DNA of 64,000 nt from Escherichia phage vB_EcoM_G9062: sequence record NC_054920.1; one strand, written 5' to 3'. The position numbers were made by a program, and so were the translations under genes. This document shows positions 4,887-7,089 of the stretch, one piece after another (the first letter of the stretch is position 1; the number at the start of each line of letters is the position of its first letter). The notes under the pieces are model-generated. The model was not told the DNA's origin and searched no databases. It saw only the letters and a program-made list of their open reading frames with translations.

Positions 4887-4974
4887 TTAAAATCCTTGAA
4901 ATAATTTATCGGTTGGTTATTAATTATTTATTACTTTGTTACTATCCGTAACAGCGTTATCCGAGTGATTCAAA

Positions 4975-5007
4975 CTAAAAAGCCCCAACCTTTCGGTCGG
5001 GGCTAAG
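4975..5007 (-). terminator. Rho-independent terminator (copy 1 of an identical 33-bp element)
   Basis: Minus-strand RNA AGCCCCGACC-GAAA-GGUUGGGGCU (GNRA tetraloop, 10-bp stem with one G-U) followed by UUUUUAG. Confidence 0.65.
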
Positions 5008-5011
5008 AATG

Positions 5012-5485
5012 TCATTTGATTTGTTTAGCAGACCAAATGCGGTCTTTAATAATTTTTTGGATGTCTTCAACATACTCAAGAGAGTGAACATGTGGATTAT
5101 CTTTGAAACTATAAGCACGGGCTAACTTTTGGCCTTCGGTTTTGATTACTAAAAGCTCTTTAAGGATAGCTTCATATTTGGAGATAATTCCTTTAACAAT
5201 ATTTTTCTCTTGTGTGACTTTAGGATCTTCTTTAGGAGCAGGTTTACCTGAAGCCTTTGCAAAAGCAGCTCCAGTAGCAACTAAACTTTTCCAAGCCATA
5301 CTAACTGCATTCCCTGTAAATCCTTCGGCTTTCATATCACGAGCAAATTGGAATCGTGATTCATCGGAAGCATCTTTATAGGAATATTTACCCGCGGCAA
5401 TGGCAGCTTTTGCAACAGCTTGAATTTCAGTGCTAGATGCTTCATTTAACACCGCTTCATTTAAAAATTGAGTATATGATTTCAT
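5012..5485 (-). CDS. Internal-protein-like capsid-targeted protein, 157 aa
   Basis: N-terminus MKSYTQFLNEA (CTS-like, LNE-A putative cleavage site); flanked by two identical terminator hairpins. Confidence 0.6.
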   Translation of the reverse strand: MKSYTQFLNEAVLNEASSTEIQAVAKAAIAAGKYSYKDASDESRFQFARDMKAEGFTGNAVSMAWKSLVATGAAFAKASGKPAPKEDPKVTQEKNIVKGIISKYEAILKELLVIKTEGQKLARAYSFKDNPHVHSLEYVEDIQKIIKDRIWSAKQIK

Positions 5486-5529
5486 CTTATTTCCTGTTTT
5501 AATTCGGGGTTTTAATATACTTATTTATA

Positions 5530-5562
5530 CTAAAAAGCCCCAACCTTTCGGTCGGGGCTAAG
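5530..5562 (-). terminator. Rho-independent terminator (copy 2 of the identical 33-bp element), ending the tRNA/stable-RNA transcript
   Basis: Same 33-bp sequence CTAAAAAGCCCCAACCTTTCGGTCGGGGCTAAG as at 4975-5007. Confidence 0.65.
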
Positions 5563-5876
5563 CCTTGCGGCAACCTTGTCGGGGTTCCACCTGCTAAGGC
5601 AAGTGTTTGTACGAAACGCCGGGATTCGAACCCGGTTATTAAGCAGTTGACGCTACTCAATATTTTTTAAAAGGCCATATCTCGACCATATCCGAACGTT
5701 CCGTCAAAAACGCTACTCGGCTTACGGCAAAGATATTTCCTCGAATCGATAATTCGGTGCGCCGTTTCTGCTGTGATATAAGGGGACATTAACAAAACAT
5801 AAAGATTTATTAATACCAGTCCTTAAACAGGGAACATCAGTCCGACGACTTGCCGGTAGCGACCCGGCTTCTTGTC
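5563..5876 (-). ncRNA. Candidate small stable RNA(s) between tRNA-Arg and the terminator (possible counterpart of the T4 stable RNA species)
   Basis: No ORF; contains a tRNA-like T-arm (CCGGGTTCGAATCCCGG on the minus strand) and a palindrome TCGAATTATCGATTCGA; a position where T4 has small stable RNAs as I recall. Confidence 0.3.
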
Positions 5877-5952
5877 TGGTCGAGGCAGTAGGGATCGAAC
5901 CTACGACCCAGGACTTAGAAGGTCCTTGCTCTTCCTTCTGAGCTATGCCTCG
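5877..5952 (-). tRNA. tRNA-Arg (anticodon TCT), CCA encoded
   Basis: Manual fold: acceptor CGAGGCA/TGCCTCG, D-stem GCTC/GAGC, anticodon loop CTTCTAA, T-loop TTCGATC. Confidence 0.85.
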
Positions 5953-5956
5953 TATT

Positions 5957-6031
5957 TGGCGGACGTGATAGGATTCGAACCTATAACCAATCGCTTAACA
6001 GGCGATCGCTCTGCCATTGAGCTACACATCC
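5957..6031 (-). tRNA. tRNA-Asn (anticodon GTT), CCA encoded
   Basis: Manual fold: acceptor GGATGTG/CACGTCC (one G-U), D-stem GCTC/GAGC, anticodon stem ATCGC/GCGAT with loop CTGTTAA, T-arm ATAGG-TTCGAAT-CCTAT. Confidence 0.75.
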
Positions 6032-6035
6032 AAAT

Positions 6036-6122
6036 TGGTGGGGAGTGGTGGAGTCGAACCACCCGAGTCGCAATGACAATGAATTTACAGTCCACACCGC
6101 TACCTCTACGGGATAACTCCCC
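6036..6122 (-). tRNA. Class II tRNA with long variable arm, most likely tRNA-Tyr (anticodon GTA)
   Basis: Acceptor GGGGAGT/ACTCCCC, anticodon loop CTGTAAA on a stem with two G-U pairs, variable-arm hairpin GTC-ATTGC-GAC, T-arm GGTGG-TTCGACT-CCACC; D-arm is non-canonical. Confidence 0.6.
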
Positions 6123-6131
6123 AAATTAATT

Positions 6132-6206
6132 TGGTGGCCCTGGGTGGAATTGAACCACCATCTGGCGATTATGAGTCGCTTGCTTGAACCTTCCAGCTAC
6201 AGGGCC
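6132..6206 (-). tRNA. tRNA with CAT anticodon (Ile2 lysidine-type or Met)
   Basis: Acceptor GGCCCTG/CAGGGCC, anticodon loop CTCATAA, T-arm GGTGG-TTCAATT-CCACC; T4 tRNA-Ile carries a CAU-derived anticodon as I recall. Confidence 0.7.
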
Positions 6207-6207
6207 T

Positions 6208-6283
6208 TGGTGCTGATTGACGGAATCGAACCGCCGATCTTCTCATTACAAGTGAGTTGCTCTACCTACTGAGCTAAATCAGC
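6208..6283 (-). tRNA. tRNA-Thr (anticodon TGT)
   Basis: Acceptor GCTGATT/AATCAGC, D-stem GCTC/GAGC, anticodon stem ACTCA/TGAGA with loop CTTGTAA. Confidence 0.85.
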
Positions 6284-6288
6284 AAAAC

Positions 6289-6378
6289 TGGCGGAGGCGA
6301 TAGGATTTGAACCTATGAGTCGCCGGAGCGACTGCCGGTTTTCAAGACCGGTGCATTAAACCACTCTGCCACGCCTCC
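6289..6378 (-). tRNA. tRNA-Ser (anticodon TGA), class II
   Basis: Sense strand GGAGGCGTGGCAGAGTGG...CCGGTCTTGAAAACCGG...TAGGTTCAAATCCTATCGCCTCC matches T4 tRNA-Ser from memory. Confidence 0.9.
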
Positions 6379-6380
6379 AG

Positions 6381-6455
6381 TCTCCGTGGCAGGATTTGAA
6401 CCTACGACATTCTGCTCCCAAAGCAGACGCTCTACCAAACTGGGCTACACGGAGT
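6381..6455 (-). tRNA. tRNA-Pro (anticodon TGG), CCA not encoded
   Basis: Acceptor CTCCGTG/CACGGAG, anticodon stem TCTGC/GCAGA with loop TTTGGGA; lies directly upstream of tRNA-Ser like the T4 Pro-Ser dimeric precursor. Confidence 0.85.
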
Positions 6456-6464
6456 AAATTAAAT

Positions 6465-6538
<74 letters not shown>

Positions 6539-6543
6539 AAATT

Positions 6544-6630
6544 TGGTGCGAGAAGTGGGACTCGAACCCACAAGGAAATCATTCCGCAGCATTTTAAGTG
6601 CTGTGCCTTTACCAATTTGGCCATTCTCGC
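6544..6630 (-). tRNA. tRNA-Leu (anticodon TAA), class II
   Basis: Acceptor GCGAGAA/TTCTCGC, anticodon loop CTTAAAA, T-arm GTGGG-TTCGAGT-CCCAC; resembles T4 tRNA-Leu. Confidence 0.85.
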
Positions 6631-6631
6631 G

Positions 6632-6704
6632 CTGGGAATAAAGGACTCGAACCTTTGCATCCTGGAATCAAAATCCAGTGCCTTACCAACTTGGCTAATT
6701 CCCA
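6632..6704 (-). tRNA. tRNA-Gln (anticodon TTG), CCA not encoded
   Basis: Sense strand begins TGGGAATTAGCCAAGTTGGTAAGGCACTGGATTTTGATTCCAG...; anticodon loop TTTTGAT; abuts tRNA-Leu like the T4 Gln-Leu dimer. Confidence 0.85.
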
Positions 6705-6801
6705 ATTATTAACAAAGGCTCTTAAGCAAGAACCCTTGATGATAGAGGGTATTAATCAGTGCGATATGAGTTAATAATAACAAATAATTCTTAAAGCATA
6801 T

Positions 6802-7089
6802 TTACCATTTATAATAATACATATTTACGATGCATTCAAGACCCAAAGGATTCTTGAAAATATCATATTCAAGAGGACCTTTTTCTGTTTCAATAAAGAA
6901 ATCAAAATTTACTGTATTAAATTTACGTTCTTCCTTCACTAATTTAACTTGAGAAGATGAACGGTCAATGTAAACCTTTTCAACTTCAAAACATGTTAAA
7001 ATGCCATAATCATCAATCAAAGCTTTAGCCGCGTCTTGATCATATTTATATCCATTTTCAATGGATGATACTTTCGCATAAAGAATCAT
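6802..7089 (-). CDS. Hypothetical protein, 95 aa
   Basis: ORF directly downstream of 7092-7490 on the same strand. Confidence 0.5.
   Translation of the reverse strand: MILYAKVSSIENGYKYDQDAAKALIDDYGILTCFEVEKVYIDRSSSQVKLVKEERKFNTVNFDFFIETEKGPLEYDIFKNPLGLECIVNMYYYKW

What the first reader, a model, noticed from the sequence alone, without database searches (positions are those of the whole stretch)
5563..5876. About 310 bp with no ORF but tRNA-like structure between tRNA-Arg and the terminator
The stretch between tRNA-Arg and the terminator has no credible ORF. It contains a perfect tRNA-like T-arm (CCGGG-TTCGAAT-CCCGG) followed by a near-complementary acceptor-like end, plus a palindrome TCGAATTATCGATTCGA. 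It is transcribed with the tRNAs and ends at the terminator. It could encode small stable RNAs like the T4 species RNAs, or a degenerate or unusual tRNA-like RNA.
Basis: partly seen in the sequence, partly recalled or inferred. Interest (0 to 1): 0.35.

Follow-up and report, generated by a model that had tools for sequence, protein, structure and literature searches.

The report
T4 stable RNAs rnaC and rnaD
This stretch holds this T4-like phage's copies of two small stable RNAs known since the 1970s, species 1 (rnaC) and species 2 (rnaD), whose job is still unknown, so the finding is a correct rediscovery; comparison with relatives adds a well-supported tRNA-like fold for rnaC with two hairpin loops that appear to pair with each other.

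Summary
The window is a Tequatrovirus (T4-like) genome. The interval 5563-5876 (minus strand) aligns with the annotated rnaD (species 2 RNA) and rnaC (species 1 RNA) genes of phage T4T, at 101/121 and 137/140 aligned positions.

Mapped parts, all on the minus strand:
- rnaD: 5876-5756
- 6-nt spacer: 5755-5750
- rnaC: 5749-5610
- 49-nt trailer: 5609-5561
- intrinsic terminator: 5559-5536

The quoted T-arm sits at 5635-5619, at the 3' end of rnaC. The quoted palindrome is off by one base, is not conserved, and merely straddles the rnaD/rnaC junction. No conserved ORF exists, and Rfam has no family for either RNA.

Twenty-five rnaC homologues from several Straboviridae genera support a four-way-junction fold. 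It has a 7-bp acceptor-like stem, a T-arm and two further arms (95-98% of cells paired, against 38-50% in slid controls). The two arm loops, UUGACG and CGUCAA, are complementary and otherwise invariant. In Marfavirus they change together to UUGGCG and CGCCAA, which suggests a 6-bp loop-loop contact.

The literature still calls the function unknown (2010, 2022, 2025). Verdict: already known genes, with modest added structural insight.

The parts
5756..5876 (-). rnaD (species 2 RNA) orthologue, 121 nt. It has an 8-nt 5' tail and hairpin 1, GCCGG-GUCGCUA-CCGGC (5868-5852). A long composite stem joins a conserved 5' module to a conserved 3' module and is capped by a hypervariable hairpin.
   Evidence: Boundaries were transferred from the T4T annotation through alignment A1. 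It matches T4T at 101 of 121 aligned positions. The 18-sequence alignment and the RNAalifold structure show compensatory changes at 5 pairs.
5750..5755 (-). 6-nt spacer GAAUUA between the rnaD 3' end and the rnaC 5' end. It serves as the 5' leader of rnaC.
   Evidence: The spacer length is constant in relatives.
5610..5749 (-). rnaC (species 1 RNA) orthologue, 140 nt, folding as a tRNA-like four-way junction.
   Evidence: It matches T4T rnaC at 137 of 140 positions. Covariation on A5 and A6 supports the fold. The fold z-score is -4.0.
5742..5748 (-). 5' strand of the rnaC acceptor-like stem (CGAUUCG, rnaC 2-8). It pairs with 5612-5618 (CGUUUCG, rnaC 132-138). The two U.U mismatches are invariant.
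   Evidence: Pair 4:136 is A-U in 7 sequences and G-C in 18. The other four pairs are invariant.
5619..5635 (-). rnaC T-arm, CCGGG-UUCGAAU-CCCGG (rnaC 115-131).
   Evidence: The middle pair is seen as G-C, U-A, A-U and U.G.
5672..5741 (-). rnaC long arm (rnaC 9-78). It occupies the position of a tRNA D-arm and ends in the 6-nt loop UUGACG at 5707-5702 (rnaC 43-48).
   Evidence: Helices 2-6. Most pairs show compensatory changes. The loop is invariant except in Marfavirus.
5637..5662 (-). rnaC short arm (rnaC 88-113): a 10-bp stem with the 6-nt loop CGUCAA at 5652-5647 (rnaC 98-103), which is the exact complement of UUGACG.
   Evidence: 9 of 10 stem pairs show compensatory changes. The loop-loop helix is paired in 25 of 25 sequences, with A-U in 21 and G-C in 4 at the fourth pair.
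5561..5609 (-). 3' trailer between the rnaC 3' end and the terminator. It contains a 7-bp hairpin, CACUUGC-CUUA-GCAGGUG.
   Evidence: Trailer plus terminator match T4T at 77 of 79 positions. A closely similar trailer (small differences, e.g. a 3-nt rather than 4-nt hairpin loop) is kept in JS10, which lacks rnaC.
5531..5559 (-). Intrinsic terminator of the tRNA/stable-RNA operon: a 10-bp stem, GAAA loop and U-run.
5877..5952 (-). tRNA-Arg(UCU). Its CCA end abuts the first base of rnaD.

Best explanation
Identity. The interval encodes this phage's orthologues of the T4 stable non-coding RNAs rnaD (species 2, 5876-5756) and rnaC (species 1, 5749-5610). They form the distal end of the tRNA operon.

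Transcription (inferred from layout and T4 literature). Both RNAs are transcribed together with the ten upstream tRNAs. The likely promoter is a MotA-type middle promoter upstream of tRNA-Gln, near 6800-6774. Transcription stops at the hairpin terminator at 5559-5536.

Processing (inferred from anatomy, plus older T4 processing work recalled from memory). rnaC is cut out of the precursor like a tRNA. Its 5' and 3' ends form a 7-bp acceptor-like stem next to a canonical T-arm, which is the minihelix that RNase P and the 3'-trimming exonucleases recognise. That 5' cleavage also frees rnaD. The rnaD 3' end would then be trimmed back to its own terminal stem.

Structure (shown here by covariation). 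The body of rnaC is a four-way junction with two extra arms. Their 6-nt loops, UUGACG and CGUCAA, are complementary. They most likely form a 6-bp kissing contact, either within one molecule or between two molecules, which would lock the RNA into a compact shape.

Function (not known). My best guess is a stable tRNA-shaped RNA that binds or titrates a host or phage protein of the tRNA or RNA-processing world, possibly in a host-dependent way. rnaD is a separate, rod-like RNA with conserved internal loops and a replaceable tip.
For: Identity
- BLAST found 804 phage records with a match. 678 of them cover at least 80% of the query, and nearly all are T4-like.
- The T4T record annotates rnaD and rnaC exactly under the match.
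- Alignment gives 137/140 matching positions for rnaC and 101/121 for rnaD.

Co-transcription
- The tRNAs lie 0-10 nt apart, and rnaD starts right after the tRNA-Arg CCA.
- The terminator is at 5559-5536.
- PMC2330249 describes a ~1.75-kb T4 primary transcript carrying eight tRNAs plus species I and II RNAs, ending after species I.

Expression
- RNAC was validated by Northern blot in T4 infection (PMC9697503).

Structure of rnaC
- RNAalifold on 9 sequences gave 46 pairs, 22 of them with compensatory changes.
- On 22 distinct sequences, 98.1% of cells are paired, against 40-47% in slid controls, and 27 of 46 pairs show double changes.
- On 25 sequences that include genera found by BLAST without reference to the loops, 95.2% are paired, against 38-50%.

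Loop-loop contact
- It is paired in 25 of 25 sequences. UUGACG/CGUCAA changes to UUGGCG/CGCCAA in all four Marfavirus records.
- Three further IMG/VR contigs carry the same concordant change. No true homologue has a discordant combination.
- All 17 IMG/VR homologues found with a pattern built only from the two ends had both loop motifs.

tRNA-like context
- In Karamvirus and Gelderlandvirus, rnaC sits between tRNA-Trp and tRNA-Gly with about 5-nt spacers, like one more tRNA.
- Marfavirus copies end in U-CCA after the acceptor stem.

Structure of rnaD
- Conserved 5' and 3' modules pair with each other, and three unrelated tip sequences all fold as hairpins.
Against: - Function is untested here, and the literature still calls it unknown (PMC3014915 in 2010; PMC9697503 in 2022; PMC12685909 in 2025).
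- The loop-loop contact rests on one evolutionary event (one clade). Apart from that, both loops are invariant, so covariation is minimal.
- An intramolecular kiss needs the 27-bp long arm to fold back, and I could not model this.
- The rnaC acceptor stem has two U.U mismatches and no encoded CCA (the sequence is UACA).
- Two genera (Kanagawavirus, Winklervirus) have non-canonical T-loops, UGCAUGC and UGCAUUC. Strict tRNA mimicry is therefore not universal.
- rnaC is absent from Dhakavirus JS10, and rnaD is absent from the rnaC neighbourhood in the other genera examined. Neither RNA is essential, and they are not an obligate pair.
- The mature ends are taken from the T4T annotation, not measured for this phage.
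- The A5 and A6 alignments were fitted to the model structure, which inflates pair counts somewhat.
Confidence: 0.9

Rival explanations
1. A decayed tRNA gene or other non-functional remnant that is passively co-transcribed at the end of the tRNA operon.
For: ARAGORN calls 5609-5704 'tRNA-???'. Other records annotate the same 95 nt as 'tRNA-Met'. The best Rfam hit is tRNA-Sec at 16.8 bits, far below its threshold of 47. JS10 lacks rnaC altogether.
Against: rnaC is at least 95% identical in 679 of 742 matching records, while the adjacent rnaD is much more variable. Compensatory changes occur in 27-32 pairs. ARAGORN's alternative acceptor stem (46-52 with 133-139) is broken in the divergent homologues. 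The RNA accumulates as a discrete species in T4 (PMC9697503).
Confidence: 0.04
2. The interval encodes one or more small proteins, as many GenBank records imply by annotating 'hypothetical protein' here.
For: ORFs of 42 and 53 aa lie on the RNA strand. 'Hypothetical protein' features sit under the match in many records.
Against: All of these ORFs start with TTG or GTG. They run across the rnaD/rnaC boundary or into the terminator. They are absent in the close relative SA21RB and differ in other genera. Substitutions follow base-pairing rather than codon positions. Single-base indels occur within them.
Confidence: 0.02
3. The complementary hexamers TTGACG and CGTCAA act at the DNA level, as an inverted repeat bound by a dimeric protein or used in recombination, and not as an RNA loop-loop contact.
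For: A symmetric DNA site would also change symmetrically, as seen in TTGGCG...CGCCAA. T4-like genomes do shuffle modules at repeated motifs (PMC4122927, title and abstract only).
Against: Each hexamer is exactly the 6-nt loop of a stem that is supported by covariation, with closing pairs that covary (U.G, U-A and G-C for loop 1; G-C and A-U for loop 2). The arms are 49 bp apart. The locus is a known stable RNA.
Confidence: 0.04

Closest known systems
Phage T4 rnaC (species 1 RNA) and rnaD (species 2 RNA)
   Same: The genes, order, strand and flanks are the same: tRNA-Arg upstream, then the trailer and terminator downstream. Matching positions are 137/140 for rnaC and 101/121 for rnaD.
   Different: rnaC differs by two substitutions and one extra A. 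rnaD has a diverged tip hairpin of the same type as T4's, and the A of its 3' CCA is not encoded (ACCG here, ACCA in T4). The upstream operon differs: there is no segB, and tRNA-Tyr and tRNA-Asn are present.
Canonical tRNA (Rfam RF00005)
   Same: A 7-bp acceptor-type stem closed by the 5' and 3' ends, an adjacent 5-bp T-stem with a UUCGAAU loop, a four-way junction, and a location inside tRNA arrays.
   Different: There is no D-loop and no 7-nt anticodon loop. The arms are 70 and 26 nt long. The acceptor stem has two U.U mismatches. No Rfam tRNA hit reaches the threshold.
tRNA-like domains of other stable RNAs (tmRNA TLD, bacterial YrlA/Y RNA, viral 3' tRNA-like structures); comparison from general knowledge
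   Same: An acceptor/T-arm mimic is grafted onto a non-tRNA body, which gives access to tRNA-processing or tRNA-modifying enzymes.
   Different: No tmRNA was called by ARAGORN, and the only tmRNA-family hit was about 10 bits against a threshold of 47. No YrlA hit appeared even at E<=10. There is no tag ORF and no Ro-binding stem.
Fully paired 6-nt kissing hairpins such as HIV TAR-TAR* (from general knowledge)
   Same: Two 6-nt hairpin loops are complementary over all six bases.
   Different: Here both loops lie in one 140-nt RNA. The contact is inferred from complementarity and one compensatory change, and has not been shown physically.

Membership tests
T4 rnaC (species 1 RNA) | Sequence homology to the annotated T4 gene | tested here: met
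   137 of 140 aligned positions match the T4T rnaC feature. The covariance model scores 157 bits on the window and 162 bits on T4T.
T4 rnaC (species 1 RNA) | Position at the distal end of the tRNA operon, followed by a trailer and an intrinsic terminator | tested here: met
T4 rnaC (species 1 RNA) | Accumulates as a discrete, stable ~140-nt RNA in infected cells | not testable with these tools
   Shown for T4 by Northern blot (PMC9697503). Not measured for this phage.
T4 rnaD (species 2 RNA) | Sequence homology to the annotated T4 gene and a position immediately upstream of rnaC | tested here: met
   85.5% identity by BLAST (H136), or 101 of 121 aligned positions. The 6-nt spacer to rnaC is conserved.
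tRNA (RF00005) | Cloverleaf with a D-arm, a 7-nt anticodon loop and a score above the Rfam gathering threshold | tested here: not met
   No RF00005 hit in 5610-5876 at gathering or at E<=10. The only clan hit is tRNA-Sec at 16.8 bits against a threshold of 47. ARAGORN reports 'tRNA-???' with a 2-nt anticodon.
tRNA (RF00005) | 7-bp acceptor stem stacked on a 5-bp T-stem with a 7-nt T-loop | tested here: met
   The acceptor stem carries two invariant U.U mismatches.
tmRNA | tRNA-like domain plus a tag-peptide reading frame and pseudoknots | tested here: not met
   ARAGORN reports no tmRNA. The only Rfam hit is tmRNA_permuted at 10.1 bits against a threshold of 47.
Any curated Rfam family | A hit at the gathering threshold | tested here: not met
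   Only the flanking tRNAs reach the threshold. rnaC and rnaD appear not to be in Rfam 15.

The most novel reading that the evidence does not exclude
rnaC is a tRNA-shaped RNA held in a compact form by a 6-bp kissing contact between its two extra arms, and it acts as a decoy or sponge. Its target would be a host tRNA-directed factor such as a processing, modification or anti-phage nuclease activity. Under this reading it would modulate host range, with rnaD as an independent second effector. A convergent SNP in rnaD arose when a T4-like phage adapted to E. coli ECOR34 (PMC12685909), which hints at host-dependent function.
Probability: 0.2. Interest if true: 0.7.

Novelty: already known. Interest (0 to 1): 0.3.

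Why it matters
As a genome-scan finding this is ordinary. It re-identifies two genes that are annotated in the T4 reference, although many deposited T4-like genomes miss them or label them 'hypothetical protein' or 'tRNA-Met'.

It still has some value, because rnaC and rnaD are among the oldest known phage RNAs without a function.

- The comparative model built here gives concrete, testable handles: invariant complementary loops, a compensatory change in Marfavirus, and the acceptor/T-arm minihelix.
- The distribution is also informative. rnaC occurs in many enterobacterial Straboviridae genera. rnaD was found in only three: Tequatrovirus, Mosigvirus and Dhakavirus. One natural lineage lacks rnaC.
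- No Rfam family exists, so a curated model would improve phage annotation.

Tried and rejected
- ARAGORN's tRNA reading of 5609-5704 (acceptor 46-52 with 133-139): rejected. Those pairs break in the Kanagawavirus, Winklervirus, KMB17 and Melville homologues, while the 2-8/132-138 stem shows a compensatory change.
- The palindrome as a feature: rejected. It is one base off and not conserved.
- Coding potential: rejected.
- More distant rnaC relatives:
  - IMG/VR motif scans returned mostly chance matches, apart from 18 + 3 true homologues.
  - The scan of bacterial and archaeal genomes gave 16 chance matches and no homologue.
- Older processing literature: a full-text search for 'p2Sp1', 'species I RNA' and 'RNase F' found nothing usable. 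The Miller et al. 2003 T4 genome review is not held.
- rnaD-rnaC complementarity: I noticed a 6-nt match between the rnaD hairpin-1 loop (CGCUAC) and the GUAGCG repeats of rnaC. I dismissed it because it does not track across genera.
- A late promoter just upstream of rnaD or rnaC: none found. The nearest TATAAATA motifs on the minus strand are at 5522-5529, after the terminator, and at 7043-7050.

Full report
**What the window is.** ARAGORN finds ten tRNA genes on the minus strand at 5877-6704, in the order Gln, Leu, Gly, Pro, Ser, Thr, CAT, Tyr, Asn, Arg. It also reports an odd 'tRNA-???' at 5609-5704. Rfam confirms nine of the ten tRNAs and nothing else at gathering thresholds. BLAST of 5520-5880 against phage genomes gives 804 matching records, almost all T4-like phages of Escherichia, Shigella and Yersinia, with the best at 99.7%. 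The window is therefore a Tequatrovirus genome.

**Checking the observation.**
- The T-arm CCGGGTTCGAATCCCGG is present once, at 5619-5635 on the minus strand.
- The following CGUUUCG pairs with CGAUUCG 130 nt upstream.
- The terminator, a 10-bp stem with a GAAA loop and a U-run, is at 5559-5536.
- The only ORFs are of 24, 42 and 53 aa and start with TTG. They are not conserved. The close relative SA21RB has none on the RNA strand, and other genera have different ones.
- The quoted palindrome is one base off. The real sequence is CCGAATTATCGATTCGA at 5757-5741. It is weaker in T4 and in other genera, so I treat it as coincidental.

**Identity.** In phage T4T (HM137666) the matched stretch carries two annotated features: 'rnaD, small stable RNA, species 2 RNA' and 'rnaC, species 1 RNA'. 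They lie directly after tRNA-Arg. Transferring those boundaries through the pairwise alignment gives:

| Part | Window coordinates (minus strand) | Length | Match to T4T |
|---|---|---|---|
| rnaD | 5876-5756 | 121 nt | 101/121 |
| spacer GAAUUA | 5755-5750 | 6 nt | – |
| rnaC | 5749-5610 | 140 nt | 137/140 |
| trailer plus terminator | 5609-5531 | 79 nt | 77/79 |

**What the literature says.**
- PMC2330249, citing Broida and Abelson, describes a ~1.75-kb T4 primary transcript from a middle promoter upstream of the cluster. It carries eight tRNAs and the species I and II RNAs, and it terminates after species I.
- PMC3014915 says their biological roles are unknown.
- PMC12685909 (2025) again says the function is unknown. 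It also reports a convergent SNP in rnaD when a T4-like phage adapted to E. coli ECOR34.

In the window I read a MotA-type promoter-like sequence, TATGCTTTA-12 nt-TATTAT, at 6800-6774 upstream of tRNA-Gln (by eye). I see no late-promoter motif between it and the terminator.

**Structure of rnaC.**

*Homologues.* rnaC homologues exist beyond the T4 group.
- They occur in Kanagawavirus, Winklervirus, Karamvirus and Gelderlandvirus.
- A second BLAST, with the Edwardsiella phage copy as query, also found them in Moonvirus, Marfavirus and others.
- In Karamvirus and Gelderlandvirus the element sits between tRNA-Trp and tRNA-Gly with about 5-nt spacers.

*Fold.* RNAalifold on nine sequences predicts a four-way junction, with these parts:
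- an acceptor-like stem, 2-8 with 132-138
- a 3-bp helix, 9-11 with 76-78, leading into a long arm, 14-73
- a 9-nt A/U linker
- a 10-bp arm, 88-113
- the T-arm, 115-131

*Covariation.* A covariance model built from these sequences gave alignments on which I counted pairs.
- With 22 distinct sequences, 98.1% of cells are paired, against 40-47% when partners are slid. 27 of 46 pairs show changes on both sides.
- With 25 sequences that include the newly found genera, 95.2% are paired, against 38-50%.
- These alignments are fitted to the model, which favours the structure. The slid controls and the many different pair types nevertheless make the fold convincing.
- ARAGORN's alternative acceptor stem is not conserved.

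**The two loops.**
- The long arm ends in a 6-nt loop, UUGACG (5707-5702). The short arm ends in CGUCAA (5652-5647). The two are exact complements.
- Both are invariant in every homologue from eight or more genera. Their closing pairs covary (U.G, U-A and G-C for loop 1; G-C and A-U for loop 2).
- In all four Marfavirus records the loops read UUGGCG and CGCCAA. This is a compensatory A-U to G-C change at the fourth pair.
- Three further IMG/VR contigs show the same concordant pair.
- A pattern built only from the conserved ends recovered 17 true homologues, and all 17 had both loop motifs (with 33, 38).
- This is one evolutionary event, so I regard a 6-bp loop-loop contact as likely but not proven. 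I cannot tell whether it forms within one molecule or between two.
- To my knowledge this contact has not been described. I could not check the 1970s-80s literature.

**The 3' end of rnaC.** Marfavirus copies end in GU-CCA-A after the acceptor stem. All the others end in GU-ACA-A. This fits a tRNA-like 3' end with a U discriminator.

**Structure of rnaD.**
- Eighteen sequences from Tequatrovirus, Mosigvirus and Dhakavirus show an invariant 5' module, an invariant 3' module and a middle region of three unrelated sequence types. Each of the three types folds as a hairpin.
- RNAalifold pairs the two conserved modules and finds compensatory changes at five pairs. One is the closing pair of hairpin 1 (G-C or A-U), and another is U41-A108 changing to A-U.
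- The fold of the window copy alone is not distinguishable from shuffles (z = -1.5).
- The CCA-like 3' end is not conserved: relatives read ACCA, ACCG, ACAG, ACAA or ACCT.
- rnaD is therefore not tRNA-like. Its 3' end is probably set by cleavage at the rnaC 5' end followed by trimming back to its terminal stem. This step is inferred.

**Distribution.**
- Dhakavirus JS10 has rnaD followed directly by the trailer and terminator. rnaC is missing exactly.
- rnaD was not next to rnaC in the other genera examined.
- T2-like and Mosigvirus phages carry a ~115-aa ORF between tRNA-Arg and rnaD.
- No cellular homologue turned up in a motif scan of 185,579 bacterial and archaeal genomes.
- The two RNAs are therefore independent, dispensable modules of enterobacterial Straboviridae.

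**Mechanism and confidence.**
- Identity as rnaC and rnaD is close to certain.
- Co-transcription and tRNA-style excision are well supported by layout, by anatomy and by the T4 literature.
- The role of RNase P in maturing species 1 is recalled from older work that I could not retrieve here.
- The four-way-junction fold is shown by covariation. The kissing contact is probable.
- The biological function remains unknown. A protein-binding, tRNA-mimicking decoy is my preferred guess, at low confidence.

**Verdict.** I score interest at 0.3. The finding itself is a rediscovery, but the comparative structure offers a practical route into a question that has been open for about fifty years.

Noticed in passing
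window 4968-5007 and 5523-5562: A 40-nt direct repeat (95% identical) contains an identical 24-nt terminator hairpin and brackets the 157-aa ORF at 5012-5485 (minus strand). A TATAAATA late-promoter motif (5522-5529, minus strand) lies immediately after the tRNA-operon terminator. The arrangement resembles the repeated promoter/terminator modules proposed to mediate gene shuffling in T4-like phages.
   Followed up: partly
window 5877-6704: The tRNA set differs from T4. tRNA-Tyr and tRNA-Asn are present and the segB homing-endonuclease gene is absent. The CAT-anticodon tRNA at 6132-6206 shares its acceptor stem and anticodon loop with T4 tRNA-Ile, so ARAGORN's 'Met' label may be wrong.
   Followed up: partly
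window 6774-6800 (minus strand): A MotA-type middle-promoter-like sequence, TATGCTTTA-12 nt-TATTAT, lies about 70 nt upstream of tRNA-Gln. It is the likely promoter of the whole tRNA/rnaD/rnaC operon. It was read by eye only.
   Followed up: no
window 6036-6122: The tRNA-Tyr found by ARAGORN was not listed by the Rfam tRNA model at the gathering threshold.
   Followed up: no
L152 (phage JS10, NC_012741) 401-600: This Dhakavirus has rnaD followed directly by the conserved 3' trailer and terminator. rnaC is precisely absent, so it is a natural deletion lineage.
   Followed up: yes
L002, L153-L155, L157 (Mosigvirus and T2-like phages): A ~115-aa ORF of the RB69ORF150c type is inserted between tRNA-Arg and rnaD. 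In those phages rnaD therefore does not abut a tRNA.
   Followed up: no
L006 746-840, L009 754-848, and many records: Public annotations often label the 3' 95 nt of rnaC as a 95-nt 'tRNA-Met', or place 'hypothetical protein' CDSs over rnaC and rnaD. These are probable mis-annotations.
   Followed up: partly
L007 and L281 (Karamvirus KMB17 and KaAlpha), rnaC positions ~33-51 and ~93-111: In these copies the complementarity between the two arm tips extends to about 19 bp. The minimum-free-energy fold then becomes one long-range helix in place of two hairpins, which could be an alternative conformer.
   Followed up: no
L004, L005, L016, L066 (Kanagawavirus and Winklervirus rnaC): The T-loop is UGCAUGC or UGCAUUC in place of UUCGAAU, while the rest of the fold is kept. 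A canonical T-loop is therefore not required in all lineages.
   Followed up: no
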